Below the pieces are notes generated by a model. That model was not told the DNA's origin and did not search any database. It worked only from the letters and a program-made list of their open reading frames with translations. Positions 9,401 to 59,711 of a stretch of 59,711 nucleotides of DNA are shown here, piece after piece. Made by a program: the position numbers and the translations under genes. Positions within the stretch are counted from its first letter, which is position 1, and every line of letters starts with the position of its first letter. Source of the DNA: Vicugna vicugna (lineage: Eukaryota); contig MU057477.1 of the NCBI GenBank assembly GCA_013265495.1, positions 124,001 through 183,711 of the forward strand. Reading direction: 5' to 3'.

Positions 9401-9518
9401 GTTCTTTTTGATTGCCCTTTCAAGGCCCGAGCTTTGAGTTTTGCTGCTTCATTTGGGTGCAGTTAAATTCTGGTTCTCAAATGAACTAGCACTAAAAGCA
9501 CGGCCATTGTCCTTGCAG

Positions 9519-9677
9519 AAACTTGGGGACTGTGGCAGCCATGGAGCCAGTGTAGCGCCACGTGCGGGGACGGTGTCAGAGAGCGTCGCCGCCTGTGCCT
9601 CACCTCCTTCCCCTCCCGACCCGGCTGCCCTGGAATGTCCTCGGAGACCTCCCCGTGTTCCCTGGAGGAGTGCGCTG
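9519..9677 (+). CDS. THSD1: THSD1 penultimate coding exon, thrombospondin type-1 repeat (159 nt, phase 1-1)
   Basis: ccttgcag| acceptor and |gtaggt donor; translates (E)TWGLWQPWSQCSATCGDGVRERRRLCLTSFPSRPGCPGMSSETSPCSLEECA with the WxxWxxWSxCSxTCG TSR motif; in frame with the exon at 14058. Confidence 0.96.
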
Positions 9678-9713
9678 GTAGGTATCCTTTCTCCTTCGGG
9701 AGTCTGTTCCTGG

Positions 9714-9830
9714 AGGGGACTTGCTCAGCAGTAGAGCACGTGCTTAGCATCATGGTTCAGTCCCCAGTACCTCCACTGAAAAAAAAAAGTTAAATAAACA
9801 TAATTACTCCCCCCCCAAAATAAATAAAAC
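9714..9830 (+). mobile_element. Vic-1-type SINE, internally deleted, about 36 nt downstream of the TSP1 exon donor
   Basis: ggggacttgctcagcagtagagcacgtgcttagcatcatggttcagtccccagtacctccac followed by an A-rich tail. Confidence 0.8.
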
Positions 9831-13930: not shown

Positions 13931-14057
13931 ACCAGAAATCCTAGTCTTTGTTTATGTTACTTTAACTGCTAGAGAGTTAGAGCAAACCACTCAGAGACCT
14001 TCTACCCACGCAGAGAAAACAATACCAGAGGATACACCGCTCTTCCTTATTTTGTAG

Positions 14058-15439
14058 CTTTCCGGCCATCCAGTCAGTCTCCCCTCCAGCCCCAGGGTCC
14101 AGTGAAGTCCAACAACATCGTGACGGTCACTGGGATATCCCTGTGCTTGTTCATCATCCTGGCCACCGTCCTCATCACGCTGTGGCGGAAGTTCGGCCGC
14201 GCCCCCAAGTGCAGCACCCCCGCGCGCCACAACTCCCTCCACGGCCCTGGCTGCCGGAAGAACTCGGACGAGGAGAACATCTGCGAGCTGAGCGAGGCGC
14301 GCGGGAGCTTCTCGGACGCGGGCGATGGGCCGGCGGGGGGCCCGGGGGACCTGGGCATCCCTCTGACCTACCGGCGGAGTGCGCCGGCGCCCCCCGACGA
14401 CGAGGCCTCGGGCAGCGAGAGCTTCCAGCCCAACGCGCAGAAGATAATCCCGCCCCTGTTTAGCTACCGCCTCGCCCAGCAGCAGCTGAAGGAGATGAAG
14501 AAGAAAGGCCTGACGGAAACCACCAAGGTGTACCACGTGTCCCAGAGCCCCCTGACCGACACCGCCATCGACGCCGCCGCCGCCGCGCCCCCCGGGGACT
14601 CGGAGAGCCCGGAAGAGGCGGCCGCCGGCAAGTTCCGGATCAAATCCCCGTTCCTGGAGCCGCCCGCGGCCGGGGCCGGGGAAAGGCCCACCTCCAGGCT
14701 GGCTGTCGCTGTGTCGCCGGCCAGCTGTGCCGTCAGCCCCAGCCAGACCGTGATCCGCAAGTCGCAGATGAGGCACGCGGGCGGCAGGGGGGCGCTGCCG
14801 GAGAGGAGCCACCCCAGGAGTTCCCATTTCCGCAGGACGGCGAGCTTTCACGAGGCCAAGCAGGCCCGGCCGTTCCGCGAGCGGAGCCTGTCCACGCTGA
14901 CCCCGCGGCAGGCCCCCGCCTGCGGTTCCAGGACGCACACCTGGGACCAGGCGGAAGACCGATTCCGGCCTCCGAGTCGAGGCGCTGCCCTGCTTCCGGA
15001 GAAGCTGGACCACGGCCAGGGGGCAAGTGGAACCGGTGGTGCGTTAAGCCCTCTCCCTAAATCCCACACCTTGGGGCAGCACACGAGGAAGCCAGACCTG
15101 GGGGATCGCCAGGCAGGATTCGTGGTAGGCGGGGAGAGAACGGAGCCTCACCGAGCTCGAAGGGGACCGTCCCCCAGTCACAGGAGCGTCTCAAGGAAGC
15201 AGCCGTCCCCCACCGCCCCCAAAGATAGCTACCAGAGGGTCAGTCCTCTGAGCCCTTCTCAGTGTAGAAAAGACAAGTGTCAGAGCTTCCCCGCCCACCC
15301 AGAGTTTGCCTTCTACGACAATACATCGTTCGGTCTCACTGAGGCCGAGCAGAGGATGCTGGACCTCCCGGGATATTTTGGGTCAAATGAAGAAGATGAA
15401 ACCACAAGTACGCTGAGTGTGGAGAAGCTGGTCATCTAG
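14058..15439 (+). CDS. THSD1: THSD1 terminal coding exon: transmembrane helix and long Ser/Pro/Arg-rich cytoplasmic tail
   Basis: ttattttgtag| acceptor, phase 1; reads (A)FRPSSQSPLQPQGPVKSNNIVTVTGISLCLFIILATVLITLWRKFGR...YFGSNEEDETTSTLSVEKLVI*, which I recognise as the THSD1 C-terminus. The ORF-track start at 14102 is an internal GTG, not a true start. Confidence 0.97.
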
Positions 15440-30149: not shown

Positions 30150-31433
30150 CTTTTCATTTTATTTATTTTTTATTGAAGTACAGTCAGTTACAATGTGTCG
30201 ATTTCTGGTGTACAGCACAATGTCCCAGTCATGCATATACATACATATATTCATTTCGTATCCTTTTTCATTAAAGGTTATGTTATTACANNNNNNNNNN
30301 NNNNNNNNNNNNNNNNNNNNNNNNNNNNNNNNNNNNNNNNNNNNNNNNNNNNNNATTTTTATGTGGCTAACATCTGTAAATCTCAAGTTCATAAATTTAT
30401 CCCTTCCCACCCCCTTTCCCCAGTAACCGTAAGATTGTTTACTATGTCTTTGAGTCTGTTTCTGTTTTGTAGATGAGTTCATAGTGGCCTTTTTTTTTAA
30501 GATCCCCATATGAGTGGTATCATATGGTATTTTTCTTTCTCTTTCTGGCTTACTTCACTTAGAGTGACAATCTCTAGGTCCATCCATGTTGCTGCAAATG
30601 GCATTATTTTACTCTTTTCTATGGCTGAGAAGTATCCCATTGTATAAATATACCACAGCTTCTTTATCCAGTCATCTGTCGATGAACGTTTATGTTGTTT
30701 CCATGCCTTGGCTATTGTATATAATGCTGCTATGAACATTGGGGTGCATGTATCTTTTCAAATTGGAGTTCCCTCCAGATATACACCCAGGAGTGGGATT
30801 GCTGGATCATATAGTAGGTCTATTTTTAGTTTTTGAGGAATCTCTATACTGTTTTCCATAATGGCTGCACCAAACTATATTCTCACCAGCAGTGGAGGAG
30901 GGTTCCCTTTTCTCCACAGCCTCTCCAGCATTTATCATTTGTGGACTTTTGAATGATGGCCATTCTGACTGGTGTGAGGTGATACCTCATGGTAGTTTTG
31001 ATTTGCATTTCTCTGGTAATTAGTGATATTGAACATTTTTTCATGTGCCTATTGGCCATTTGTATGTCTTTATTGGAGAATTGCTTGTTTAGGTTTTCTG
31101 CCGATTTTTGGATTGAGTTGTTTGCTTTTTGTTATTAAGTTGTATAAGCCGTTTATATATTCTGGAAATTAAGCCTTTGTCTCATCATTTGCAAAAATTT
31201 TCTCCCATTCTGTAGGTTGTTTTGTTTCGCTTATGGTTTCCTTTGCTGTGCAAAAGCTTATAAGTTTAATTAGGTCCCATTTGTTTATTTTTGCTCTCAT
31301 TTCTATTGCCTGGGTAGACTGCCCTAGGAGAACATAGCTAAGATTTATGTCAAAGAATGTTTTGCCTATGTTTTCTTCTAGGAGGTTTATCATGTCTTGT
31401 CTTATATTTAAGTCTTTAAACCATTCTGAGTTT
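30150..31433 (-). mobile_element. 5'-truncated lineage L1 (ORF2 C-terminus + 3'UTR), containing an assembly gap (N 30291-30354)
   Basis: ORFs MFIAALYTIAKAWKQ...WIKKLWYIYTMGY and [19 protein letters not shown] are L1 ORF2p; T-rich tail at left end. Confidence 0.92.
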
Positions 31434-35777: not shown

Positions 35778-36809
35778 ACAGAATGGGAGAAAATTTTTGC
35801 AAATGAAACCGACAAAGGCTTGATCTCCAGAATATATAAGCAGCTCATATGACTTAATAAGGAAAAACCAAACAACCCAATCCAAAAATGGGCAAAAGAC
35901 CTAAACAAGCAATTCTCCAAGGAAGACATACAAATGATCAATAGGCACATGAAAAAATGCTCAATATCACTAATTATCAGAGAAATGCAAATCAAAACTA
36001 CAATGAGGTATCACCTCACACCAGTCAGAATGGCCATCATTCAAAAGTCCACAAATGACAAATGCTGGAGAGGCTGTGGAGAAAAGGGAACCCTCCTCCA
36101 CTGCTGGTGGGAATGTAGTTTGGTGCAGCCACTGTGGAAAACAGTATGGAGATTCCTCAAAAGACTAGGAATAGACTTACCATATGACCCAGTCATCCTG
36201 CTCCTGGGCATATATCCAGAAGGAACCCTACTTCAGGATGACACCTGCACCCCAATGTTCACAGCAGCATTATTTACAATAGCCAAGACATGGAAACAGC
36301 CTAAATGTCCGTCAACAGATGACTGGATAAAGAAGAGGTGGTATATTTATACAATGGAATACTATTCAGCCATAAAAACCGACAACATAACGCCATTTGC
36401 AGCAACATGGATGCTTCTGGAGAAGGTCATTCTAAGTGAAGTAAGCCAGAAAGAGAAAGAAAAATACCATATGAGATCGCTCATATGTGGAATCTAAAAC
36501 AACAACAACAACAACAAACATAAATACAAAACAGAAACAGACTCCTACACATAGAATACAAACTTGTGGATGCCAAGGGGGCAGGGGATGGGAAAGAACA
36601 GACTGGGATTTCAAGATGTAGACTAGATAAACAAGATTATACTGTATAGCACAGGGAAATATATACAAGATCTTGTGGTAGCTCACAGTGAAAAAAAATG
36701 TGACAATGAATATATATATGTTCATGTATAACTGAAAAATTGTGCTCTACACTGGAATTTGACACAACATTGTAAAATGACTATAACTCAATAAAAAATG
36801 TTAAAAAAA
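35778..36809 (+). mobile_element. Young 5'-truncated L1 (ORF2 C-terminus, 3'UTR, poly-A)
   Basis: 187-aa ORF 35934-36497 is the L1 ORF2p C-terminus ([18 protein letters not shown]); TSD aaagcctagcaga 35765-35777 / aaagcctatcaga 36810-36822. Confidence 0.95.
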
Positions 36810-43865: not shown

Positions 43866-44489
43866 CCCAGGAATCCCACTCCTGGGCATATATCCAGAAG
43901 GAACCCTACTTCCAAATGACACCTGCACCCCAATGTTCATAGCAGCACTATTCACAATGGCCAAGATATGGAAACAGCCTACATGTCCATGATGACTGGA
44001 TAAAGAAGATGTGGTATATTTATACCATGGAATACTATACAGCCATAAAACGACAACATAATGCCATTTGCAGCAACATGGATGTTCCTGGAGAATGTCA
44101 TTCTAAGCGAAGTAAGCCAGAAAGAGAAAGAAAGATACCATATGAGATAACTCATATGTGGAATCTAAAACAAAACAAAACAAAACAAAAACCAAAAAAA
44201 CCATTAATACAAAACAGAAACAGACTCATAGACATAGAATACAAACTTGTAGTTGCCAAGGTGGGGGGGGGTGGGAAGGGACAGACTGGGATTTTAAAAT
44301 GTAGAGTAGATAAACAAGATATATTGTGTAGCACAGGGAAACAGATACAAGATCTTGTGGTAGCTCACAGTGAAAAAGAATGTGACAATGAATATATGTA
44401 TATTCATGTGTAATTGAAAAATTGTGCTCTACACTGGAATTTGACACAACATTGTAAAATGACTATAACTCAATAAAAAATGTTTTTAA
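43866..44489 (+). mobile_element. Young L1 3' fragment inserted into the ERV RT region
   Basis: Perfect 20-bp TSD aaaaagtattggctagtttc at 43846-43865 and 44490-44509; closely similar to the L1 at 36190-36809. Confidence 0.93.
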
Positions 44490-46644: not shown

Positions 46645-48199
46645 GTTTCCCAGCTGTATTTCTAGATACCTTTCAGGATTTTCCCACTTAGCAGTTTTTA
46701 TTCAGTGTTGGGCCTGGCCTTCACTGACAGGCATAGGAACTAGCTGATTAAGTCAGAAAAACCAGTCACCAAGTTTGAGTGACTCTTAGCTTCTTCAGCA
46801 AATGTATGAGGCTCTTCAGTTACGTTGGGAAAATCCATGACTATGGCTCAAAGTTCAGCTTTCCTTCAGAGAATATGAGAAATCAAGGGTTTAGTCTCTG
46901 GGTCCTCAGTAGGCTTAATTTTAAAGGGACAGGTTCTGAAAAGTGCAGAGGAAAAGGAAGTGGGGAGAGTTTCAGAAAAAAAGGTAAGTTAGGCAAGAGG
47001 GTTAGTTTGGGGAAGTGAGGGTATAGAGGAGGTGGAGACAGGAAGGGAGAAGATGGCACCAGAGGTGGGGCCTGAGCATAAGGCGCTGAGGGGGAGAGAC
47101 AAGATGGCGGCAGAAGCTGTTTTCTCTTTCTTTAATCATAATGACTGAGAGACTGGTTCCAGGCACCTGAGGGAGTCTCTAATTACTAGCTGACCATTAT
47201 GTTAAACAAGCTGATTTCAGTGGTCGTACTGTACAAAGAATACAGAGTTTCAGAAAAGTCACTTAACAAATAACAACAAATCCTGGGGAGAGGGGGAAAA
47301 TCCAGTTTCCACTTGTTATGGTATGTAAAAAGTCCAGTTTTCAATTAAAAAATCTAAAAAGGAACAAGAACTGTGACCCTTAGAAGGGCTTCCAGGCCTT
47401 TTTTCATCTTCTGTGAGACAGGGAAGCTGGAGGGAGCTATGGTTGTCACATTGCCCTTCTGCAAGGTCAGATAAGGCTCTGGTAAGGTAGCTCTCTGTAG
47501 AGCAAGTCTTTCTCAAGGAATAGGATCCTCTGGGCATATTTCAAAAATGGTCCAGCCTTGAAGTTGTCAACCTGACACTGAAGTCAGTGACCATGTTTTA
47601 TTTGTTTTTGTAACTTTCAAAGTGCTTTACAGACATAATAATAAATGACTTTAATCTCTTTTTCCATGTCTTCAACTGACCATTTATTCAGCATCAGAAT
47701 ATGTACCAACGCAGACTGTCAAATTTATCTTTATTTCTCTTTTGGTGGTAATTTTTATGTTGTAATTTCCATATAAAAATGTCTGTTTCCTACGTTCCTC
47801 CCCCCATATTTGTCTTCATTTGTTTGGTATTTGTTTACACCTTTCAGATTTACTCTGCCAAGAATATGGGTGTATTTTTAGCTTACAACTAATACTTGAT
47901 TGCTGCTTCTCAATCCTATGAAGTAATAGCTTGAGTTAAACTAAAATTTCTTTCCTCATTCCTGCATCAACCTTGCCTATTGTAAGTAAAGTTAACATCG
48001 GCCAGAAAACACTCAGCCCTCTGGTCATTCTCTCCAAACAACCAACAGGGGAAGCCAAAAAGCTCAGTGTAACCTTCAGAATCATAATATGGAAAAAGCA
48101 TCCCCTCCACTAGATGCGAAAGTGCGCTTTGAGATTATCATCCTGGGATCTTTCATCGTGGTACCCCCACCCCCATCTTTAAGGAGAGCAGCGTCAGTT

Positions 48200-49000
48200 C
48201 CTAAGTACCCGTTATCTGGAGCCACGCTCACTGTGTTCTCCACTCCGCTACGTCTCAGGACTCCGTGGAATCTGTTGTTTAGGGTTGCCATGGACACGGA
48301 GTTCTTTTTCTAGTAGTGGCTTTTTGCCGGCCCCAGGTAAAGACCTAGGACGGGCGCCTCCGTACAAGGGCAGCTGAAGGGTTGGGGCGGAGCAGGGATA
48401 GGGGTCTTTAAACGCGGTATACAGGACACTTTACCTTGTGGTAAGCTGTGGGGAGCACTGATTAACGTTCGTCTCCTCTCCCGGGGACTTCTCAGAGCCC
48501 CCTCACTCTCAGGGATGTGGGGGTGGAGTGGATGGGGACACTAGGTCGTTGTAGGACAAAGTAGCAGTAACCTTGCGTCTGGCCGGGAACTGGGTCAAGA
48601 TTTGACTTAACGGGCGTAGTTTGAGGATATTAAAAATGAAAAAAAGAATGGAAAGAGAGAAAGAAAAAGGCATTATCCTGTAAGGCAGCAGGAGAGAAAA
48701 CTGCTACCCAGGATCTTGAGTAAAGTTCGCTCCCGATTAGGACAAGTTGTACCCTAGCCACAAAACGCGCCCCACAGCCCCGCAGCCCCAGCCCCTTCCG
48801 AGACGCAGCGCCTCCGCTAAAGCAGCCTTGCCTGCGGGTAGGCGGATCCCGGGGCTGCAGGGAGCGGGGCCCAGAAACCGGGCTCTGCTTCGCCCGCCCT
48901 GGCTCTCGGGGCGCTGCCTCTCGTGAACCGAGGCCGCGGCCTCCCAGCTTTGGGCTTCCTACTCCCACTGCGCATGAGCTGGTATCCCTCAAAGGTATGG
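48200..49000 (+). promoter_or_regulatory. CpG-rich promoter region and probable non-coding first exon (candidate donor CAG|GTAAAG at 48336/48337) of the downstream gene
   Basis: Local CpG enrichment against a CpG-poor background; GC-box GGGGCGGAG (~48384); X-box-like GTTGCCATGGACAC at 48284-48297; lies about 1 kb upstream of the ATG exon. Confidence 0.6.
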
Positions 49001-49728
49001 AATTTAACAGGTGACTGGGTCCCAAGCCCAAAACTCAAAATCAACATTTATGCCCAAATTGGTCTGTTTATAAAATTTAAAAAAAATTCCTATTTGTTTT
49101 TATCTTTCTCTCCTTGCCCAGAATTTAGGGGCTTGTGGCACACTTCCGGCTGCCTTAGTGTGGTCATCATATGATTACTTGCCAGCTTGGCAATGTCTTT
49201 TATTCTCCAGTGATTTATCACAGTTTGTATGCATGAAATCTGCTCTGTGAAGTGTTGAGGGTCACATCTCTTTATTATTCTACAGAATCTTTCAGGATGT
49301 GATTTATTCTACAGAATATCTCGTGATGGAAATCTCATGTCACTATGATCATGTAAAGTTGGTTTGAAACGGGTTTTGTTTCATTTTTTGGATCCTGTGT
49401 AGCAAGTGGGCAATCTTTAAAGTGTCCTTACTTGAGCTAAACTTAAATTTTATTGAACACTCAAAAAAGATTTTCCTCTATTTCTTGAACTACAATATTA
49501 GAGACAAATAGCCAATGCATGTTTCACAGGACTGATAAGATTGCACAGAATGGCACATTTTATGCTTGTGGATTCAAGACTTTGGAAATGCTGATCCATG
49601 CCTAATAAGTCCTATGTATGACTTTCTTTCTAACTGGTGGAATATCATATGTGTTTTAAACATGTTAAATATGTGCTTTTCCTTTTCTTAGATTAATTGT
49701 AGATTAAATTCAACCACGAGACAATGCC

Positions 49729-49781
49729 ATGAAGAGATTGAAGGACAACCTATATGGTTGGTTCAGACCTCAAAAAAATAA
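49729..49781 (+). CDS. TPTE2: Putative TPTE/TPTE2 first coding exon (coding part): MKRLKDNLYGWFRPQKN(K)
   Basis: Acceptor ccttttcttag| at 49691 (alternative at 49702); gccATG Kozak context; AA|gtaagt donor in phase 2, in frame with the next exon; gene identity inferred from synteny and exon architecture. Confidence 0.6.
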
Positions 49782-50529
49782 GTAAGTGAGAAGATTCAAA
49801 GTTACTGAATTTTAAGCATAATTTTCAGCCTCTGTTAATAGAATCCAATGCACGTGTACCTTTAATAAATGTAAATAATATGCAAAAGAAATTGGCAAAC
49901 AATTTAAAGACCTTGTTTTATGCCTGTAACTTCCTTAAAAATACCACATCTTAGGCAGTGTGCTAGTGATAATATGCATGTACCAGTTAAGGTCACTTCA
50001 AACTTCTCCTCCAGGGGTGGCTGGTTGCCCACATGGAGGATGTTCTGTCTGGAGGTGGTAACCATTTCTGGACACGGCCACTACAAGGGCTTCAGTTGTC
50101 CCATTTCCTTCAACACCTGAAACATTGCTAATTACCACAGAGAAGGTCACAAATGCATTTTTATTAGCAAGATTACTGGTTTGCAAATCAGTATGATGGA
50201 TGTGAGAAATACACAGATGTTCAAGGTCTGTGAACTGGCAAAAGTAAATAACAGTAACTGTCTCAAGGGATGTAATGAGGACTAAATGAAGTAATATTTG
50301 GGACGCATCAGCACAATGCCTAGCACTTGGTAAATACCTTTTCAATGTTTGTTAGACGAAATATCACTTTTGTGGTATTATTTCTTTAATTTGGGCAAAT
50401 TTATCCTTATTTAAAAATTTTTTTCCATTTTATAATTTATTCTTAGATGTCGATAAACTAGGTGTTAGATGTATTTTTATCCTCCATATCAATTGGCTTT
50501 TCTTTTGTATATTGTCTGTCTTAATTCTT

Positions 50530-50679
50530 TTTTTTTAACTTTTTAAAAATTAAAAAAAATTTTTCTTGTGGGCAGAGGTAATTAAGCTTATTTATTTTTA
50601 AGTGGAGGTACTGGGACTTGAACCCAGGACCTTGTGCTTGCGGGGCAGGCACTCTACCCGTGAGCTATATCCTCCTCCC
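50530..50679 (-). mobile_element. Vic-1-type SINE
   Basis: ggaggtactgggacttgaacccaggacc...cactctacccgtgagctatatcctcctccc. Confidence 0.8.
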
Positions 50680-52471
50680 TGTATGGTTGTGTCTTTATTC
50701 TTTTCTACTATTTTTTCTGGGAGAGTTTCTCAAGTTCATCTTCCAACTCTAAACTAATTTGCCTTTCACATGTATCCAAACTACTCTTTATCCCATGAAT
50801 GGATTCTTTATTTCAACAATTCTACTTTTACATGTAAGATTTCCTGTTGGGTTTTTTTTCCTTAAGGCTTCTTCTTCTCATTTCATGTTCCTAACATCTT
50901 CCCTTGTATCTGTAAGTGTGCTTCTCATTCGTACCCAAAAACCTTGGTCAGTGTGTTCCGCTGGTTCTGCTTCAGATGGTACATGTTGCTCAGTTTGGTG
51001 TATTTCTTTTGCTTGTTGTACTCTGTTTTGACTTGTGAGCTCATATTCATTGTGGCCGTCGGCCCCTCTGTCTAGTAACCAGTATTAGGGAAGGGCTGAA
51101 GGTGGGACAATCTCTGTCTGTGGCTGTTGTCTCAACATAATTATTAACAGCATGTCCTTGTCACTTTCAAAAGTGTCCTGGCTTGGGCAAGGTATTATAT
51201 AGGCAACTAGTTGAAAGCTGGGACCTAGGGTGTGTTTTTCTCAATAAGTTTAACGTGAGGGGAGATGATAAGCTTGGGCATAGAGTTTCAGGGACCACGA
51301 AACACTATGACCAGGTAATTCGTGTGGTCAGGTATGCCACCTTTAAGCTCATGGGCAAAGCAGCCTTGGAGGAGGCAGTGACTCTAGGTTGTCACCTGGG
51401 GCTTTGGAGATGGGCTGGTTGTGTAAGAGTGAATGCCCAAGGACTGCTCTTCAGCCTTTCCCTGTTTTCATCAGCTAACCTAATGCCACTGGAGTATTAT
51501 TACCTACCTACACCTGGGTGGTTGCTACTGGTTTCTACTGAGAAGGCAGTGATTGTCTCCAACTCAAGGGAAAGACAAGAACAGAACTTAAAATTGTCCC
51601 GCCCCCTGGGCCCCTCCAGACTGACGCCAGCTGCCCTTTCCCACAGCCTGTCTGCCAGTTAAGGATGGACTCCTCTAGAATGTCCCAGGGTTTGTCTTGT
51701 TGTTTCTTGGAATTCATACTTCTGTTGGACTTCTACAGTTTTGGGAGGAAGACTGTCTCTCATCTCAGATAGGAACTCAAGATTTCCCAGGAAATTATGG
51801 AGTGTATTACTTTGAGAATCTTTGTGTTTAAAATTTAAAACATGTATGAGTTTTATATTGTTGTCATGTACTGGCTTTTGGCATAGCATTTGGTGAAGAA
51901 GACAGGCTGCCTAACCAGTAATATTGGTGAAATGGTAAATATTTAGCAGGCTTTTATGACGTGAACAGATGCAAAGTGCATTTTCATGTGTCTTATTTGA
52001 CAGGTGAGGAAATTGAGTTGTGAAGAGGTTAAATTATCCAAGCCAGTGATTTGGTGGTGAGAAGTCTTGATTTTGGATAAGATAACCAGATATGTTTTTG
52101 AAATTCAGAGAAAAAGAAAAAGGAACCATTCTAAACATGCTCTACCTCTAGTTCAGAAAAAGAAAGAAAGAAATATTATACTATATAGGTCACTGTTGAC
52201 CTAACTACCTATTTCTTCTCTACCAAATGATGGACAGGGACTAGTCGTTGGCATTGGAATATTCATTGTTCTGGCATTTTCTTTTTCTGTATCCCTTCCT
52301 TAGCTGTTACCTGGATCCACCTCCCTATCCCTGCGTTCTCACATCTTTCATGTTTCTCAGATTCCTTCCAGAGCGTGTGAATGTTGACAAAGTGGGGAAG
52401 AAGAAAGGAGGTTTAATAATGCCACACCTCCCTTTACTTCTTTCCTTCTCCTTCCAGTGGATTCACAGACA

Positions 52472-52474
<3 letters not shown>

Positions 52475-52530
<56 letters not shown>
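52475..52530. repeat. (CA)n microsatellite, about 28 units
   Basis: Directly visible; a shorter (TG)n lies at about 41464-41496. Confidence 0.95.
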
Positions 52531-52533
<3 letters not shown>

Positions 52534-52705
52534 AGAGGCTGTCTCAGAGGTCTCAGTGCTGTCCCCTGAAGCTGTTTCCTTAGTTTCTGCCATGTTTCTT
52601 CATGATTTTACTTTTCATATCCTGAAATTCTATCAGAAAAAAGAACGCAATTGCCTTCCAAACTGTCTGACTTGATTTTTTGTGTGTTTTTTCACCCTTT
52701 GGCAG

Positions 52706-52753
52706 AGTTATGGATGCCCCTTCGGGCTCCTCTGACAACACTGACAGTGTAAG
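52706..52753 (+). CDS. TPTE2: Putative TPTE/TPTE2 micro-exon, 48 nt, phase 2-2: VMDAPSGSSDNTDSV(R)
   Basis: ttttttcaccctttggcag| acceptor and AAG|gtgagt donor; no stop codon; internal in-frame ATG at 52710 is a possible alternative start. Confidence 0.68.
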
Positions 52754-53490
52754 GTGAGTTGACCTGACTGAGCTGAGTGGGGAAAGGTATTGGGAGCAAA
52801 CTCATAGTTTGTTTGTGATCCTCAGTAGCTAGCAGCCAGACCTCTCAGGAAGCTCTCAGAATGTCTCTGTGTGAGCCTCTGCCCGAGGGGCCGGCAGAGG
52901 AGGGAGGAGGTGGTAGCCGAGGAAAGGGCGCTGTGGAGCTCTCGACAGGAAAGAGTGGCCCTAACTGACGCCCGGCTCTGTCCCTCGCCCCTGGAGCTGG
53001 GCTACTGTCTAAGGCTGGTGTCCCAGCTGTACACCCTCCGCCGTGTTGCAGAGAGCCCCTGCCTCAGGCTTGTATTTATTTGAACCAAACTGAGGAACCG
53101 AAAAGGAATACATGATACAAGAAGAGTAAGGATGTGCTGAAGGGAATTGATGATCAGGACATTAGCAGAGGCTTCAAGATGGTATACCTATAGACTGAAG
53201 TTGAACTTTGAAGTAAATTCAGCCTCAGTGCAGTTACACACGAGAGTCAAGTTTAGCAGTAAATAATTGCATTTGTCTTGATTTTTACTGGGCTTTGCGG
53301 GCAGGCCTAAGATCTTCATTTCAACTGTAATAAATCCCTATTTCTAAGGAAAACTGAAATACTCATTGCCAAATAACTAACTTCCAAATAGATTTCTAGG
53401 GTTCAACTAGTTTACAAATTGAGGACTACTTACAACTAATTAACTCTATGGAGTCACTTGGAGTTTGATTGTATGTTTTTAATTCCTTAG

Positions 53491-53544
53491 AAGTGACCCA
53501 AATGAACTGCCATCAGGAATCCATCATGGAGTCACCCATGAAAG
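53491..53544 (+). CDS. TPTE2: Putative TPTE/TPTE2 micro-exon, 54 nt, phase 2-2: SDPNELPSGIHHGVTHE(S)
   Basis: tttttaattccttag| acceptor and GAAAG|gtgagg donor; same 18-codon, ...ES-ending design as I recall for human TPTE N-terminal exons. Confidence 0.72.
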
Positions 53545-54761
53545 GTGAGGAATATATTAAGGGGTGAGTGAATGGGATGGAGAAATTTAGTATCAGGATT
53601 ATCTGTGGCAGTACAGAATTTTCTGGACAATGATTTAAAATCCTTTCTAAAAAGATAGGGGTTTCAATGAATTATGTTTACTACATATTTTAGATTCAAG
53701 GGATTCTTATTGTTCAGATATATTGATTATATTGCTGTTCTGTATAGAATATCTCTAGTGATACATTTCTGCATTTTTGGGATATTCAAAGTAAAACAGA
53801 ACAATTTTCCAGGCTGGGTGATGGTAATGGAGACAATAATGTTCCTGGTTCATATGAATAAGTCAGTGTCAAGTTTGAAAGGCAGGAACTGTTGGTGGAT
53901 CTCTTTTCATTGGGAAGGTAGGGTTTATGCTGAGGCAAGGAGAAAAGGGAGAACTAGGGAAAGATATCAATGTTTGGGAGGGAAGGGGTTACAATAAATC
54001 ATCCTAATTTGATTTATAGAAAATACCATCTTTTTAAAAATTACATTTATCACAATTAAATATTCTAGTTTGAAAATCTTCTACTTTTCAGAAGAGTTTG
54101 AGAAGAGCGGTATTAGTTCTTGTTTAATGTTTAGTAGATTTTACCAGTGAAGCCATCTGGTCCTGGCCTTTTGTGTTTTGGAAAGTTTGATTACTAATTC
54201 AGTCTCCTTACTAGCAACTAGTCTGTTGAGATTCTCTGTTTCTTCATATTTCAGTCTTGGTAAGTTATGGGAGCCTGCTGCCCCAAACCCAACCGCCCCA
54301 TCATATGGAGGGAGCCTCTGACTCAGGCCTGTGCTTACTCTGCAGGATCCGAGGAGCAGGAAAGATGACCAAGATGAGGAGTCAGAGGGTGATGAAGGGA
54401 CTTGAGAAGCAGGAAGTTAGGTGAGGGGAGAGGGATGTATAGCTGCAAACTGAAGTCGAATTTGAAATAAATTCCACAAAAGGATGCTACATATTGGGTC
54501 AGATTCAGCAGTAAAGGACTATACTTAATTCTTGAATTGTTAGCTTTTACGGTAGGTCAAAAATATTTATTATAAACATATAAAAAATCATTTCTAGGGA
54601 AGAGGAGATATCAGATTCCAAATAACTGATTTACTTTACTGATGTGAGTTTTCTAAGAATCAACCAGTTGATAAGTTTAAGAATCATTGTAGCTGATTTG
54701 AAAAAAAGTAAAAGTCTAGAAGTCATGGGATATCTTATTCTGTCTATTTTTAATGCTTTAG

Positions 54762-54815
54762 CACTTCCCTGAGTAAACTGACATCAGTATCCTCTGAAGG
54801 ACTCTCCAGTGAACA
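54762..54815 (+). CDS. TPTE2: Putative TPTE/TPTE2 micro-exon A1, 54 nt: TSLSKLTSVSSEGLSSE(H)
   Basis: tttttaatgctttag| acceptor and CA|gtgaga donor; phase 2-2, open. Confidence 0.68.
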
Positions 54816-55463
54816 GTGAGATACAAAGCATAAATACATATATGTGCACACACACACAAATGCATACGGATACAGAGTGAGATTTGGGACGTTCACCCTA
54901 GGAGCACCCATGGGAATACAGAGTTCCTTTCATAGTATTTCTAAAGTCCTCTTGTGGTTAGATTCTATGTATAATATTCTTTGTCTTTGGAACTGAAGTA
55001 GAAAAAGAGGCACAAGACAAAGAGGGGATTTCTTACTCCTGTCTTAACTCTCAGTTACTATCAGCCAAACTCTTAGGAAACTGTCCGATTGCCTGTGTCT
55101 GAGACGCTAATAGAGTGTGTCCGGGGAGGAGAATAACCTATTCAGAGCAAGGAGAATGATGGTAACTTGTAAGTAGTAAATAAATAGTAGCAGTGGACAG
55201 GGAGCAGAGGAGGCCTCAACGGAAGAGCATGGAGCTAAGAGACCTGGATCTGTCCCTCACCCTGCAGATTCAGCCACCAAGTGAGGCTAGTGCCTCAAAT
55301 CCAAATGCACCATCATATGGAGGGAGCCCCTGACTCAGGCCTGCAGTTACTTGACCGTATCCCAGGGGCAGGAAAGACATCCTTTGTTTCTAAAGAGCAC
55401 AGTCATGATGGAGGAATTGAGAATCAGGAAATTAGATTGCTCAAGAAAGATGGGAACCAGGAA

Positions 55464-55562
55464 GGGGGTGAGTAGAGCTCAGTGGTAGAGCGTGTGCTTA
55501 GCATGCACGAGGTCCTGGGTTTAATCCTCAGTTCCTCTATCAAAAAAAAAAACAAAAAAAAA
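55464..55562 (+). mobile_element. Vic-1-type SINE within repeat unit 1
   Basis: gggggtgagtagagctcagtggtagagcgtgtgcttagcatgcacgaggtcctgggtttaatcc followed by poly-A. Confidence 0.9.
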
Positions 55563-55860
55563 CGGTACTTACAACTGAGGTTGATTTTGGAATAAATGCT
55601 ACCCCAAAAGGCTGTGACATATTGGGTCAGGTTCAATAGTAAAGAATTGTACCTAAGTCTTGGGTCATTACATGTTTGACAGTATAAGACATTCATTGCA
55701 AATTCGTAAAGCCTCATTTCTTGGGAAAATAACCTTCCAGGTTTCAAATAATTGATTTACACATCAGTTTTTAAAGGGTCGCCTAGTTTATAATTTGAAC
55801 CAAAGAATTCAATCTAGAAAATTATGTGGCGTCTGACTATGTTGCTTTTTAATCCTTTAG

Positions 55861-55914
55861 CACTGCCTTGCCTGAACGGACAACAGGAACAGCTGACAGA
55901 ACCAGAACTGAAAG
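55861..55914 (+). CDS. TPTE2: Putative TPTE/TPTE2 micro-exon B1, 54 nt: TALPERTTGTADRTRTE(S)
   Basis: tttttaatcctttag| acceptor and GAAAG|gtgaga donor; phase 2-2, open. Confidence 0.7.
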
Positions 55915-56204
55915 GTGAGACAGAAAGAGAGAGAGATGTAAACAAAAGCATGTACATAAATGCAGAGAGAGGCACATGAGAATGGGAATGAGAGAAACCG
56001 GGAGGGAGCCGAAGAGGGGAGGGAAAGATTAACTGAAATTGAGATCGGTAATTTGGGAGGTTCATTTTTCAAGAGTATCTGTCACGTAAGTGTCTTTGAC
56101 ATTGTTTCTAAATCTTTTTTACTTCACCATATGTAAGTATCTTTCTGTCTTTTTTGCATCTAGTTGGATAAAAGAGAAGCAGGTCATAAGAGAGATGCGT
56201 CTTA

Positions 56205-56622
56205 GTTTTTTATTTTTTATTTTTTTAAAAAGGTGACGTGAGAATTTATTAGAGAATGGATAGTACACTCAGGGGAGAGCGCGCAGGCTCAAGGGAGCGG
56301 CTGCCCTGAGTTTCTTTGACAAGTTAGCTCCATAGGGTGTAAAAATGAATGGGCGGAATATTCATTGGGCAGGGAAGGGTTTGGGGTCGCATTCCCTGAT
56401 TATCATCCCAACTCCACCTTTCCAAAGGGAGGAGGGATTTTTGTCCTTATTTAGTCTGGATCAGAAGTGTCATGGCGTCGGTGCATGATGGGTACTTCTA
56501 ATTTGCAAGGCTAATTTTATTGAAATGAGGGTATAATGAGCAAAAGATCATATTCGGACACTAGAAATTCCTGCTCTTTCTCACCTTTCTTTGTTCTTCT
56601 CCAGGCCACTAGTCATCCCAAA
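56205..56622 (-). mobile_element. Poly(A)-tailed, 5'-truncated retrocopy of a MER41-like LTR (unit 1)
   Basis: Minus strand shows LTR motifs, then AATAAA (56250-56245), 18 nt, and an A-rich tail; 14-bp TSD agagatgc(g/t)tctta at 56191-56204 and 56623-56636. Confidence 0.75.
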
Positions 56623-57034
56623 AGAGATGCTTCTTATACTCATCTGTTTATCACTCTTAAGTGGCCGCCCCAAATCCTAAGAGACTATCCAAATGCTGGA
56701 GTATGAGACTCTCCAAAAATGGGCCAAGAAAGGAGAGAAACCTCTTTTGGAGCCAGGAGAAGTCTGTACTCCTGAAAGTGTTCAGGAGTAAAGAAATGCC
56801 CAGAAACTTGATCCACTGTTTGTTTGTTTGTTTTTCTATAGGACTAAGATTTTCATTACAAATGTATAAAGCCTCCTTTACAGGGAGAAATTAAATGCCA
56901 GGTTTCAAATAACTGATTAGAATGTAATTTTTAGGGCAACTATATTATAAACTGCAGAGTAATTGTAGCTAATTTGCATTTTAAAATCTAGAAAGACATA
57001 TGGAATCTTATTATGTGCATTTTTAATCCTTTAG

Positions 57035-57085
57035 TTATGACCAAAGCCAGTTGGAAGAAGTAATTTGTGTTGAACCTCTTGAAGG
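57035..57085 (+). CDS. TPTE2: Putative TPTE/TPTE2 micro-exon C1, 51 nt: YDQSQLEEVICVEPLE(G)
   Basis: tttttaatcctttag| acceptor and GG|gtgaga donor; phase 2-2, open. Confidence 0.68.
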
Positions 57086-57258
57086 GTGAGATATAAATAT
57101 ATATAGATAGAGTGGGGGGTGGGGTGGGTATTGAGATTTGTGAAATTTACCTTGGTGGTATCTATGACATATCTTACTTTGCCTATTTTTAATCCTTTAG
57201 CAAAGAAATTTACCGGTATCTGTGACATATCTTACTTTGCCTATTTTTAATCCTTTAG

Positions 57259-57312
57259 CCCTTCCCTGAATAATGTGACATCAGTATCCTCTGAAGGACT
57301 CTCCAGTGAACA
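57259..57312 (+). CDS. TPTE2: Putative TPTE/TPTE2 micro-exon A2, 54 nt: PSLNNVTSVSSEGLSSE(H)
   Basis: tttttaatcctttag| acceptor and CA|gtgaga donor; diverged paralogue of exon A1. Confidence 0.65.
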
Positions 57313-57971
57313 GTGAGATACAAAGCATAAATACATATATGTGCACTATGTACACAAACACACACAAATGCGTACGGATACAGAGTGAGATTTGGGATGT
57401 TCACCCTAGGAGCACCCATGGGAATACAGAGTTCCTTTGATAGCATTTCTGAAGTCCTCTTGTGGTTAGATTCTATGTGTAATATTCTTTGTCTTTGGAA
57501 CTGAAGTAGAAAAAGAGGCACAAGACAAAGAGGGGATTTCTTACTCCTGTCTTAACTCTCAGTTACTATCAGCCAAACTCTTAGGAAACTGTCCGATTGC
57601 CTGTGTCTGAGACGCTAATAGAGTGTGTCCGGGGAGGAGAATAACCTATTCAGAGCAAGGAGAATGATGGTAACTTGTAAGTAGTAAATAAATAGTAGCA
57701 GTGGACAGGGAGCAGAGGAGGCCTCAACGGAAGAGCATGGAGCTAAGAGACCTGGATCTGTCCCTCACCCTGCAGATTCAGCCACCAAGTGAGGCTAGTG
57801 CCTCAAATCCAAATGCACCATCATATGGAGGGAGCCCCTGACTCAGGCCTGCAGTTACTTGACCGTATCCCAGGGGCAGGAAAGACATCCTTTGTTTCTA
57901 AAGAGCACAGTCATGATGGAGGAATTGAGAATCAGGAAATTAGATTGCTCAAGAAAGATGGGAACCAGGAA

Positions 57972-58072
57972 GGGGGTGAGTAGAGCTCAGTGGTAGAGCG
58001 TGTGCTTAGCATGCACGAGGTCCTGGGTTTAATCCTCAGTTCCTCTATCAAAAAAAAAAACAAAAAAAAAAA
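57972..58072 (+). mobile_element. Vic-1-type SINE within repeat unit 2
   Basis: Copy of 55464-55562 at offset 2508. Confidence 0.9.
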
Positions 58073-58368
58073 GTACTTACAACTGAGGTTGATTTTGGAA
58101 TAAATGCTACCCCAAAAGGCTGTGACATATTGGGTCAGGTTCAATAGTAAAGAATTGTACCTAAGTCTTGGGTCATTACATGTTTGACAGTATAAGACAT
58201 TCATTGCAAATTCGTAAAGCCTCATTTCTTGGGAAAATAACCTTCCAGGTTTCAAATAATTGATTTACACATCAGTTTTTAAAGGGTCGCCTAGTTTATA
58301 ATTTGAACCAAAGAATTCAATCTAGAAAATTATGTGGCGTCTGACTATGTTGCTTTTTAATCCTTTAG

Positions 58369-58422
58369 CACTGCCTTGCCTGAACGGACAACAGGAACAG
58401 CTGACAGAACCAGAACTGAAAG
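58369..58422 (+). CDS. TPTE2: Putative TPTE/TPTE2 micro-exon B2, 54 nt (identical to B1)
   Basis: Same splice sites and sequence as 55861-55914. Confidence 0.65.
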
Positions 58423-58712
58423 GTGAGACAGAAAGAGAGAGAGATGTAAACAAAAGCATGTACATAAATGCAGAGAGAGGCACATGAGAATGGGAATGAG
58501 AGAAACCGGGAGGGAGCCGAAGAGGGGAGGGAAAGATTAACTGAAATTGAGATCGGTAATTTGGGAGGTTCATTTTTCAAGAGTATCTGTCACGTAAGTG
58601 TCTTTGACATTGTTTCTAAATCTTTTTTACTTCACCATATGTAAGTATCTTTCTGTCTTTTTTGCATCTAGTTGGATAAAAGAGAAGCAGGTCATAAGAG
58701 AGATGCGTCTTA

Positions 58713-59130
58713 GTTTTTTATTTTTTATTTTTTTAAAAAGGTGACGTGAGAATTTATTAGAGAATGGATAGTACACTCAGGGGAGAGCGCGCAGGCTCAA
58801 GGGAGCGGCTGCCCTGAGTTTCTTTGACAAGTTAGCTCCATAGGGTGTAAAAATGAATGGGCGGAATATTCATTGGGCAGGGAAGGGTTTGGGGTCGCAT
58901 TCCCTGATTATCATCCCAACTCCACCTTTCCAAAGGGAGGAGGGATTTTTGTCCTTATTTAGTCTGGATCAGAAGTGTCATGGCGTCGGTGCATGATGGG
59001 TACTTCTAATTTGCAAGGCTAATTTTATTGAAATGAGGGTATAATGAGCAAAAGATCATATTCGGACACTAGAAATTCCTGCTCTTTCTCACCTTTCTTT
59101 GTTCTTCTCCAGGCCACTAGTCATCCCAAA
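58713..59130 (-). mobile_element. Poly(A)-tailed LTR retrocopy (unit 2)
   Basis: Copy of 56205-56622; TSD at 58699-58712 and 59131-59144. Confidence 0.75.
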
Positions 59131-59542
59131 AGAGATGCTTCTTATACTCATCTGTTTATCACTCTTAAGTGGCCGCCCCAAATCCTAAGAGACTATCCAA
59201 ATGCTGGAGTATGAGACTCTCCAAAAATGGGCCAAGAAAGGAGAGAAACCTCTTTTGGAGCCAGGAGAAGTCTGTACTCCTGAAAGTGTTCAGGAGTAAA
59301 GAAATGCCCAGAAACTTGATCCACTGTTTGTTTGTTTGTTTTTCTATAGGACTAAGATTTTCATTACAAATGTATAAAGCCTCCTTTACAGGGAGAAATT
59401 AAATGCCAGGTTTCAAATAACTGATTAGAATGTAATTTTTAGGGCAACTATATTATAAACTGCAGAGTAATTGTAGCTAATTTGCATTTTAAAATCTAGA
59501 AAGACATATGGAATCTTATTATGTGCATTTTTAATCCTTTAG

Positions 59543-59593
59543 TTATGACCAAAGCCAGTTGGAAGAAGTAATTTGTGTTGAACCTCTTGAAGG
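59543..59593 (+). CDS. TPTE2: Putative TPTE/TPTE2 micro-exon C2, 51 nt (identical to C1); the next A-type exon begins at 59709 at the window edge
   Basis: Same splice sites and sequence as 57035-57085; the window ends tttttaatcctttag|CCC. Confidence 0.65.
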
Positions 59594-59711
59594 GTGAGAT
59601 ATAAATATATATAGATAGAGTGGGGGGTGGGGTGGGTATTGAGATTTGTGAAATTTACCTTGGTGGTATCTATGACATATCTTACTTTGCCTATTTTTAA
59701 TCCTTTAGCCC

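What the first reader, a model, noticed from the sequence alone, without database searches (positions are those of the whole stretch)
54740..59711. Recent ~2.5-kb tandem duplication adding 53 aa per copy: a possible coding copy-number-variable exon array
Seen: each unit carries exons A, B and C (54+54+51 = 159 nt), so each added copy preserves the frame. The two units are nearly identical over about 2.2 kb, and a third A-type exon starts at the last three bases of the window. Both units contain the same Vic-1-type SINE and LTR retrocopy, so the duplication post-dates those insertions. Inference: a lineage-specific, possibly still polymorphic expansion of a sperm protein N-terminus by unequal crossover. 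Caveat: near-identity in a gapped assembly could reflect a false duplication or a collapsed longer array.
Basis: partly seen in the sequence, partly recalled or inferred. Interest (0 to 1): 0.8.

Follow-up and report, generated by a model that had tools for sequence, protein, structure and literature searches.

The report
Amplified exon block in camelid sperm phosphatase
The repeat is a real, very young, in-frame tandem copy of a three-exon block at the start of a testis/sperm voltage-sensing phosphatase gene (TPTE2-like) of a South American camelid, and a newer alpaca gene model carries four such blocks, so the window shows only part of a longer array.

Summary
Window 54730-57201 and 57227-59709 align at 98.9% over 2483 nt. 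Each unit has three AG/GT-bounded exons of 54+54+51 nt in one frame. A third unit begins at the last three bases.

The gene is the TPTE2-like voltage-sensing phosphatase, lying downstream of THSD1. Alpaca RefSeq models match window exons E0, E2, B, C and A' at 100%, and E1 with one residue different.

The newest alpaca model (XP_072832266.1, 777 aa) has four tandem copies of the 53-aa unit. Older alpaca models have one. All 11 Camelus N-termini examined have at most one B and one C, arranged A-B-C-A'-D.

Differences between the two units all lie in the first 242 nt (about 94% identity). The remaining 2230 nt differ at 2 bases. This fits unequal crossover between the two A-type exon modules.

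The window ends inside the array, so copy number is undetermined.

Verdict: real, lineage-specific, already present in RefSeq predictions, and not found in the papers searched. Moderate interest.

The parts
49729..49781 (+). First coding exon (E0) of the TPTE2-like gene, with the start codon at 49729. The donor GT is at 49782.
   Evidence: tblastn of P0123/P0271 residues 1-18 matches 18/18. Sequence read.
52706..52753 (+). Exon E1 (48 nt).
   Evidence: tblastn to P0123/P0271 residues 18-34, with one residue different (S in the window, N in the alpaca models). AG/GT boundaries.
53491..53544 (+). Exon E2 (54 nt), the first exon of the 18-residue module type.
   Evidence: 100% match over the exon to P0123/P0271. 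Its intron flank is 67-81% like those of modules A, B and C.
54762..54815 (+). Exon A (54 nt). It is the A-type exon upstream of the amplified block. It is intact and open, but it is absent from the 6 alpaca models and present in 6 of 11 Camelus N-termini.
   Evidence: 81% match over 16 aligned residues to the A' residues of P0271.
54730..57201 (+). Repeat unit 1 as aligned. The head, 54730-54971, is only about 94% like the head of unit 2. The body, 54972-57201, is almost identical to unit 2.
55861..55914 (+). Exon B (54 nt).
   Evidence: 100% match to the B residues of P0123/P0271. AG/GT boundaries.
55461..55572 (+). tRNA-derived SINE with an A-tail in the A-to-B intron. It is absent from the paralogous A-module intron. 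The same element sits at 57969-58080 in unit 2.
   Evidence: Rfam tRNA hit at 55468-55539 and 57976-58047, 34.4 bits each. The paralogous blocks differ in gap size, about 83 nt against about 196 nt.
56205..56619 (-). Retroposed insert of about 415 nt in the B-to-C intron. It has a T-rich left end, which is an A-tail on the minus strand, and is flanked by a 17-nt imperfect direct repeat at 56188-56204 and 56620-56636. By the 2508 offset, the copy in unit 2 lies at 58713-59127.
   Evidence: 15 of 17 bases match. No RNA family matched. The family (LTR or other) was not testable, so this part is tentative.
57035..57085 (+). Exon C (51 nt).
   Evidence: 100% match to the C residues of P0123/P0271.
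57201..57258 (+). 58-nt local tandem copy of 57142-57200 at the unit 1/unit 2 junction. It repeats the whole acceptor motif, so an out-of-frame decoy acceptor (57186-57200) lies 58 nt upstream of the A' acceptor. The unit 2/unit 3 junction lacks this copy.
57259..57312 (+). Exon A' (54 nt). It is the A-type exon that closes each amplified unit.
   Evidence: 17/17 match to P0271 at four places.
57227..59709 (+). Repeat unit 2 as aligned.
58369..58422 (+). Exon B', identical to B.
59543..59593 (+). Exon C', identical to C.
59694..59711 (+). Third acceptor motif plus the first three bases (CCC) of a third A'-type exon. The window ends here.
13973..15439 (+). Context: the last coding exon of THSD1, the upstream neighbour on the same strand. 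Its TSP1 exon is at 9485-9793.
   Evidence: 98% to the Camelus dromedarius THSD1 cluster representative, E = 0. (TSP_1, E = 3.4e-12).

Best explanation
The region is the 5' coding part of the camelid TPTE2-like gene. [quoted passage not shown]

Its cytoplasmic N-terminal tail is built from an old array of modules of about 1.1 kb. Each module carries one 51-54-nt exon of 17-18 residues, all in the same phase. Any of these exons can therefore be skipped or added without breaking the frame.

The common ancestor of camels and South American camelids already had the order E2-A-B-C-A'-D, with two paralogous A-type modules flanking B and C.

In the South American lineage, unequal (non-allelic homologous) crossover between the A' module and the A module duplicated the interval 'A-tail, B, C, A'-head'. 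This interval is about 2.5 kb, with 159 coding nt and 53 residues. Once two perfect 2.5-kb units existed, further unequal exchange raised the number.

The window holds two units and the first bases of a third, and then ends. The newest alpaca gene model has four.

Each unit adds an acidic, Ser/Thr-rich stretch upstream of the voltage sensor. By inference this stretch is disordered.

Shown: the repeat, the exon structure, the gene identity, the four-copy protein model and the single-copy state in Camelus models.

Inferred: the crossover mechanism and point, the young age, the inclusion of all copies in mRNA, and any effect on the protein.
For: Repeat: 2483 nt at 98.9%.

Identity profile: there are 14 substitutions and one 11-nt indel in the first 242 nt, then 2 differences in 2230 nt. 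A hybrid A'/A module made by crossover near 54972/57480 predicts this step.

Exons: AG/GT bounded, 54/54/51 nt, one common phase, with stop codons directly outside each exon.

Old modular array: intron flanks of E2, A, B and C share blocks of 67-81% identity.

Gene identity: of 150 VSP/PTEN-like representatives tblastn-ed against 48000-59711, only P0123 matched the exons. E0, E2, B, C and A' matched at 100%, and E1 had 1 difference. P0123 is XP_031540450.1, TPTE2-like [Vicugna pacos].

Architecture: cluster member P0271 (777 aa) hits the solved TPTE2 structure 9c49 at E = 4.6e-175 over residues 289-774. It hits the Ci-VSP voltage sensor 4g7v at 7.6e-17 and PTEN_C2 at 1.9e-32.

Synteny: THSD1 lies upstream on the same strand. 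Two fish gene models fuse THSD1 to VSD-phosphatase-C2 in that order.

Copy number: the 53-aa unit starts at residues 53, 106, 159 and 212 of P0271. It occurs once in P0293, P0123 and P0274. It is partly skipped in P0272 and P0273.

Camelus: all 11 N-termini have at most one B and one C, and the longest (643 aa) read A-B-C-A'-D.

Insertions: the SINE and the retroposed insert sit at the same offset (2508) in both units, so both predate the duplication.
Against: No reads could be laid. Neither the copy number in this animal nor the junctions have independent read support here.

Near-perfect identity of 2.2 kb, together with a window that stops 3 nt past a repeat junction, is also what an unresolved or looped assembly graph gives.

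The four-copy protein is a computed RefSeq model. I could not see its DNA or its RNA support.

Older alpaca models have one unit. This may mean a collapsed older assembly, skipped exons or a real difference.

No short transcript-derived protein carrying an A'-to-B junction was found (none of the 8000 candidates scored reached E <= 0.01).

The unit 1/2 and unit 2/3 junctions differ by a 58-nt local duplication. A single simple duplication event does not predict this.

Camelus assemblies could in principle also be collapsed.
Confidence: 0.75

Rival explanations
1. Assembly artefact. The animal has one B-C unit (A-B-C-A'-D). The assembler, entering the shared sequence downstream of A', looped back through the A intron, B and C, and stopped at the next branch.
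For: There are only 2 differences in 2230 nt, both in a homopolymer. The window ends 3 nt after the junction where the two paths diverge. The window comes from a gapped assembly, with N runs at 7798-7913 and 30291-30354. Older alpaca models show one unit.
Against: An independent alpaca model on a 73.9-Mb contig has four consecutive units. The repeat is therefore not peculiar to this assembly. There is no gap between the units. Two different junction forms are present, with and without the 58-nt copy.
Confidence: 0.08
2. The two units are old, as old as the 6% divergence of their heads. Their bodies were made identical by recent gene conversion rather than by a recent duplication.
For: The sharp switch from about 94% to about 100% identity is also the signature of a conversion tract. 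In Camelus the A and A' peptides are identical to each other, which shows concerted evolution in this array.
Against: Camelus models have only one B and one C. A second B-C therefore did not exist before the lineages split, unless Camelus lost it. Four identical protein units in alpaca are explained more simply by repeated unequal exchange. Unequal exchange and conversion are not mutually exclusive.
Confidence: 0.12
3. The duplication is real in DNA, but the extra exons are mostly skipped. The protein is then not lengthened in vivo, and the array is neutral intronic baggage.
For: Every exon of this array behaves as a cassette in the gene models. Alpaca X3 lacks C and X4 lacks B and C. Camelus isoforms lack A, C or A' in various combinations. 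Exon A is intact in the window but is used in 0 of 6 alpaca models. The 58-nt copy puts an out-of-frame decoy acceptor in front of the A' of unit 2.
Against: The RefSeq model XP_072832266.1 joins all four units. The splice sites of the copies are identical to those of the exons used in the one-unit models.
Confidence: 0.2

Closest known systems
Camelus TPTE2 (e.g. XP_010949759.2, 643 aa, isoform X1; P0283)
   Same: It is the ortholog. It has the same first exons and the same 17-18-residue exon modules in the order A-B-C-A'-D. It has the same cassette-type splicing of these exons, and the same VSD-phosphatase-C2 body.
   Different: It has one B-C block only, and exon A is used. The 53 residues of the unit differ at 11 positions from alpaca, read from the alignment. 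This is about twice the divergence of the rest of the protein, which by my count is about 89% identical.
Human TPTE and TPTE2/TPIP with their alpha-delta splice variants
   Same: They belong to the same family. They are testis-expressed and have multiple splice variants (PMC3229583, passages). The solved TPTE2 structure 9c49 aligns to residues 289-774 of the alpaca protein. By recall, untested here, the human N-terminus also has 18-residue exon repeats that are alternatively spliced.
   Different: I know of no tandem multi-exon block amplification in human, and none was found in the searches made. The human gene family expanded instead by whole-gene segmental duplication (recall).
Multi-exon in-frame copy-number arrays such as the LPA kringle IV-2 repeat (recalled, not tested here)
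   Same: A unit of several kb holding more than one exon is repeated head to tail. Its coding length is a multiple of three, and it is generated and varied by unequal crossover.
   Different: LPA units encode a folded domain, and their copy-number polymorphism is documented. Here the unit encodes a low-complexity acidic tail, no solved structure covers it, and polymorphism is untested.
Ciona Ci-VSP
   Same: It has a voltage sensor coupled to a PTEN-like phosphatase and a C2 domain (PDB hits 4g7v, 3awf).
   Different: The PDB matches start at residue 289 or later of P0271. The N-terminal tail that holds the repeat has no counterpart among solved chains.

Membership tests
Voltage-sensing phosphatase (TPTE/TPTE2/VSP) | The window's exons are part of a gene that encodes such a protein. 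| tested here: met
   tblastn: E0 18/18. E2, B, C and A' match at 100% over the exons. E1 has 1 difference. The matches are to P0123 and P0271, which the source names TPTE2-like [Vicugna pacos].
Voltage-sensing phosphatase (TPTE/TPTE2/VSP) | Four-helix voltage-sensor domain N-terminal to the phosphatase. | tested here: met
   P0271 residues 319-468 match the Ci-VSP sensor 4g7v at E = 7.6e-17, and residues 289-774 match TPTE2 9c49 at E = 4.6e-175. Pfam Ion_trans alone falls below its cut-off (17.1 bits against 25). These exons lie outside the window.
Voltage-sensing phosphatase (TPTE/TPTE2/VSP) | PTEN-like phosphatase domain with a CX5R active-site loop, and a PTEN C2 domain. | tested here: met
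   DSPc scores 34.7 bits (cut-off 33.5) and PTEN_C2 gives E = 1.9e-32. The loop HCKGGKGRTG is readable in P0271. Catalytic activity was not tested.
Voltage-sensing phosphatase (TPTE/TPTE2/VSP) | Conserved position next to THSD1. | tested here: met
   The THSD1 last exon is at 13973-15439 on the + strand. Fish models P0027 and P0107 fuse THSD1 and then VSD-DSPc-PTEN_C2.
In-frame multi-exon tandem array (coding copy-number repeat) | Two or more head-to-tail units of near-identical sequence. | tested here: met
   There are four protein units in P0271.
In-frame multi-exon tandem array (coding copy-number repeat) | The coding length of a unit is a multiple of three, and exon phases are compatible. 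| tested here: met
   54+54+51 = 159 nt, with the same phase throughout.
In-frame multi-exon tandem array (coding copy-number repeat) | The copies are spliced together into mRNA. | tested here: inconclusive
   The only support is a computed RefSeq model.
In-frame multi-exon tandem array (coding copy-number repeat) | Copy number varies among individuals. | not testable with these tools
All runs offered were contigs, not raw reads. Unit counts differ between assemblies and models (1, at least 2, and 4), but this is confounded by assembly quality.
Vic-1 (camelid tRNA-derived SINE) | A tRNA-like head followed by an A-rich tail. | tested here: met
   Rfam tRNA at 55468-55539 and 57976-58047. The A-run was read. 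Assignment to the Vic-1 family itself was not testable, because no repeat library is available.
LTR element | Similarity to a known LTR family, or TG...CA ends with short target-site duplications. | not testable with these tools
   No repeat library is available. What is seen is a T-rich end and a 17-nt flanking direct repeat. This points to LINE-type retroposition of some transcript.

The most novel reading that the evidence does not exclude
The N-terminal cytoplasmic tail of the sperm voltage-sensing phosphatase is a copy-number-variable array in living alpaca, llama, vicuna and guanaco populations, with 1 to 4 or more blocks of 53 residues. The number of blocks changes where or how strongly the enzyme acts in the sperm tail. 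It would then be a target of sexual selection and a heritable contributor to male fertility differences.
Probability: 0.12. Interest if true: 0.65.

Novelty: new member of a known kind. Interest (0 to 1): 0.4.

Why it matters
The finding shows a protein of a well-studied enzyme class gaining 53 to 159 residues within a very short evolutionary time. It also preserves the sequence footprint of the recombination that did it.

VSP is studied mainly for its sensor and phosphatase. The function of its N-terminal tail is little known. A natural series of tail lengths in one genus group would be a ready-made experiment.

Practically, it marks a locus where camelid assemblies disagree (one unit, at least two, and four). 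Protein length in annotation there depends on assembly quality. If the array is polymorphic, it is a candidate marker for male fertility in alpacas and llamas.

Tried and rejected
1. Whole-genome look-up: no genome is held for this window.

2. Earlier notes of the scan: none by place or by words.

One search had failed on an out-of-range max_evalue.

4. Sequencing runs: 24 runs were listed, all kept as contigs.
- 14 DNA-type runs of four coded organisms hold 0.78-0.85 of the sampled words.
- RNA runs X15, X16 (one study) and X17 (another), labelled reproductive system, hold 0.28, 0.27 and 0.23.
- None could be laid. One search was stopped by a filter on a part of the flank and was counted. met the cap.
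- These shares are leads only. They are no evidence for expression, junctions or copy number.

5. Search for short, possibly transcript-derived proteins with the repeat: none reached E <= 0.01 among the 8000 candidates scored.

6. Exact search for exon C in metagenome contigs, looking for host DNA by chance: 0 matches.

7. Literature:
- TPTE + THSD1 gave 8 papers. I read the listing only, and none concerns synteny.
- TPTE2 + camel gave 3 papers, unrelated by title.
- TPTE2 + alpaca gave 0 papers.
- A five-term search was too loose to be useful.
- Passages of PMC10769328 and PMC4322731 say nothing about the VSP N-terminal exons.

I gave that step up and read the differences from a pairwise alignment by protein id instead.

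9. Rfam on the 415-nt insert: nothing near any family threshold.

10. TRF does not see the repeat, because its period limit is 500.

11. Rejected idea: that the exons are chance open frames in a non-coding repeat. Exact matches to annotated proteins rule this out.

Full report
**The observation**

A self-comparison of the window shows that 57227-59709 repeats 54730-57201 head to tail, at 98.9% identity over 2483 aligned columns (repeat finder gives spacings of 2497-2508). The only N runs lie far away, at 7798-7913 and 30291-30354.

I scanned for the acceptor motif TTTTTAATCCTTTAG, allowing up to 3 mismatches. It gave 15 hits on the + strand and 2 on the - strand. Eight of the + strand hits lie in 53476-59708. 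Six of these are followed after exactly 54 or 51 nt by a GT donor, and a seventh donor of this kind follows the hit at 53476.

The exon candidates are E2 53491-53544, A 54762-54815, B 55861-55914, C 57035-57085, A' 57259-57312, B' 58369-58422 and C' 59543-59593. All share one phase. Stop codons lie directly outside each exon in that frame. One unit has 54+54+51 = 159 coding nt.

The last acceptor, at 59694-59708, is followed by the three bases with which A' begins, and there the window ends.

**What gene it is**

Single exons were too short for the protein searches, so I went through the neighbour.

- The 488-codon open frame at 13973-15439 is the last exon of THSD1. It is 98% identical to the cluster representative from Camelus dromedarius, E = 0. 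A TSP1 exon lies at 9485-9793.
- Among the THSD1 hits were two fish gene models of about 1450 residues. They run from THSD1 straight into a voltage-sensor, a dual-specificity phosphatase and a PTEN C2 domain. The voltage-sensing phosphatase gene therefore follows THSD1 on the same strand in those fish.
- I searched the 1.84 billion representatives with the phosphatase part of one such model. I then ran all 150 best proteins against window 48000-59711 with tblastn.
- Only one, P0123, matched the candidate exons. It also revealed an upstream first coding exon, E0 at 49729-49781, which matches 18 of 18 residues. E2, B, C and A' match at 100%. E1 (52706-52753) differs at one residue.
- P0123 is XP_031540450.1, 'phosphatidylinositol 3,4,5-trisphosphate 3-phosphatase TPTE2-like isoform X2 [Vicugna pacos]'.
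- Its longer cluster member P0271 matches the solved TPTE2 structure 9c49 over residues 289-774 (E = 4.6e-175). It also matches the Ci-VSP sensor and phosphatase structures, PTEN_C2 and DSPc, and carries the loop HCKGGKGRTG.

The one-residue difference in E1 suggests that the window is not from the assembly those alpaca models were built on. It may come from another individual or from a close relative.

**The array is longer elsewhere**

The same 90% cluster holds four alpaca proteins.

- P0271 (XP_072832266.1, 777 aa, on a 73.9-Mb contig) has the 53-residue unit B-C-A' four times in a row, starting at residues 53, 106, 159 and 212.
- The older models P0293 (636 aa), P0123 (625 aa) and P0274 (596 aa) have it once.
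- P0272 lacks C, and P0273 lacks B and C.
- None of these six alpaca models uses exon A of the window.

A search with the N-terminal 275 residues found only six clusters: two alpaca, two Camelus and two whale.

In the 11 Camelus N-termini that I printed, B and C never occur more than once. The longest forms (643 aa, on contigs of 71 Mb) read E0-E1-E2-A-B-C-A'-D. Six of the 11 include A. A, C and A' are each missing from some isoforms, so these exons behave as cassettes.

The whale proteins show A-like, B-like and C-like modules but no A-type exon after C.

So the arrangement of an A-type exon on both sides of B-C is shared by both camelid lineages. These lineages have evolved apart for more than 11 million years according to the abstract of PMC13751797, which I saw in the listing. 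Multiplication of B-C-A' is seen only on the South American side.

**How it arose**

A base-by-base alignment of the two units shows that all but two differences lie at the head.

- 54730-54971 against 57227-57479 has 14 substitutions and an 11-nt indel, about 94% identity.
- 54972-57201 (2230 nt) has only two adjacent differences, in the A-tail of the SINE.
- Upstream of 54730 the similarity ends.

This step is what unequal crossover between the A' module of one chromatid and the A module of the other would leave. The second module is A' up to the exchange point near 57480, and A from the matching point near 54972 onward.

Older history is visible too. The introns before E2, A, B and C share blocks of 67-81% identity. 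The array therefore grew by single-module duplications long ago.

The tRNA-derived SINE (Rfam tRNA at 55468-55539, and again at 57976-58047) is missing from the paralogous A-module intron. It therefore entered after the old module duplications and before the recent one.

The same holds for an insert of about 415 nt at 56205-56619, which has a T-rich end and a 17-nt flanking direct repeat.

With 2 differences in 2230 nt, and a neutral rate of about 1-2 x 10^-9 per site per year (recalled, not from a call), the body of the unit is younger than about half a million years, or is kept uniform by continuing exchange. The heads would date to well over 10 million years. That agrees with the shared A...A' arrangement.

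**Doubts**

The window stops three bases into the third unit, right where the two junction forms diverge. The unit 1/2 junction carries an extra 58-nt local copy (57201-57258) of the preceding 59 nt. The unit 2/3 junction does not.

Near-perfect identity and an end at a branch point are what an unresolved assembly gives. The number of units in this animal is therefore unknown. It could even be one if the assembler looped.

I rate that as unlikely, because an independent alpaca assembly's model has four units. But that model is a prediction, and I could not inspect its DNA or RNA support.

The decisive test was to lay reads on the flank plus one unit. It failed. All 24 runs offered were contigs in any case.

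A search for short transcript-derived proteins with an A'-to-B junction found none.

**What it does**

Each unit adds 53 residues that are rich in Glu, Ser and Thr and have one Cys, as read. No solved structure covers residues 1-288 of P0271. I infer a flexible cytoplasmic tail ahead of the voltage sensor.

Between alpaca and camel the unit differs at 11 of 53 positions. By my count, the whole aligned protein is about 89% identical, against 98% for the neighbouring THSD1 exon. The whole gene evolves fast, and the amplified part fastest.

All four base differences between A and A' change the residue.

Human TPTE and TPIP are described as testis-expressed with several splice variants (PMC3229583, passages). 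A 2026 paper reports a role of TPTE in spermatogenesis (PMC13039310, abstract start only).

Whether tail length affects targeting or regulation is open.

**Novelty**

The four-unit protein already sits in RefSeq as a prediction. I found no paper on it: TPTE2 + alpaca gave 0 papers, TPTE2 + camel gave 3 unrelated by title, and the TPTE searches gave nothing on exon-block amplification. The library misses most subscription journals.

It is a new example of a known kind of event, in-frame multi-exon tandem amplification by unequal crossover. It occurs in an interesting protein and has an unusually clear footprint.

Noticed in passing
window 57142-57258: A 58-nt local tandem copy at the unit 1/unit 2 junction repeats the complete acceptor motif. 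This creates a decoy acceptor 58 nt (not a multiple of 3) upstream of A'. The unit 2/unit 3 junction at 59650-59711 lacks it, so the junctions of the array are not uniform.
   Followed up: partly
window 54762-54815: Exon A is intact, with good AG/GT sites and an open frame. It is used in 0 of 6 alpaca RefSeq models, while its Camelus counterpart is used in 6 of 11 N-termini. Its acceptor tract has a G where B, C and A' have C. All four base differences from A' change the residue.
   Followed up: partly
P0293 residues about 133-143 (outside the window): Downstream of the array, alpaca models carry an extra 11-residue acidic mini-exon that Camelus X1 lacks. It is one of three similar short acidic exons, which suggests a second small exon-repeat family in the same N-terminal tail.
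   Followed up: no
P0027 and P0107 (fish proteins): Two fish gene models fuse THSD1 with the voltage-sensing phosphatase into one protein of about 1450 residues. They are probably read-through annotation errors. They are useful as evidence that the two genes are neighbours on one strand from fish to camelids.
   Followed up: partly
window 50602-50675 (- strand): A SINE head that ARAGORN calls tRNA-Ala (anticodon cgc) and that Rfam scores at 40.2 bits, above the tRNA threshold. It sits in the intron between E0 and E1. It is most likely a retroposon and not a tRNA gene.
   Followed up: no
window 48740-48995: A stretch that looks GC- and CpG-rich by eye lies about 750 nt upstream of the first coding exon and ends at a possible GT donor. 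It is a candidate promoter and non-coding first exon of the TPTE2-like gene. I did not measure it.
   Followed up: no
window 52464-52530: A (CA)33 microsatellite lies 175 nt upstream of exon E1. It is a possible polymorphic marker next to the array.
   Followed up: no
window 35853-36497 and 43943-44413: Long open frames in the THSD1-TPTE2 intergenic region look to me, by recall, like LINE-1 ORF2 remnants. Pfam gave no family at E <= 0.01.
   Followed up: no
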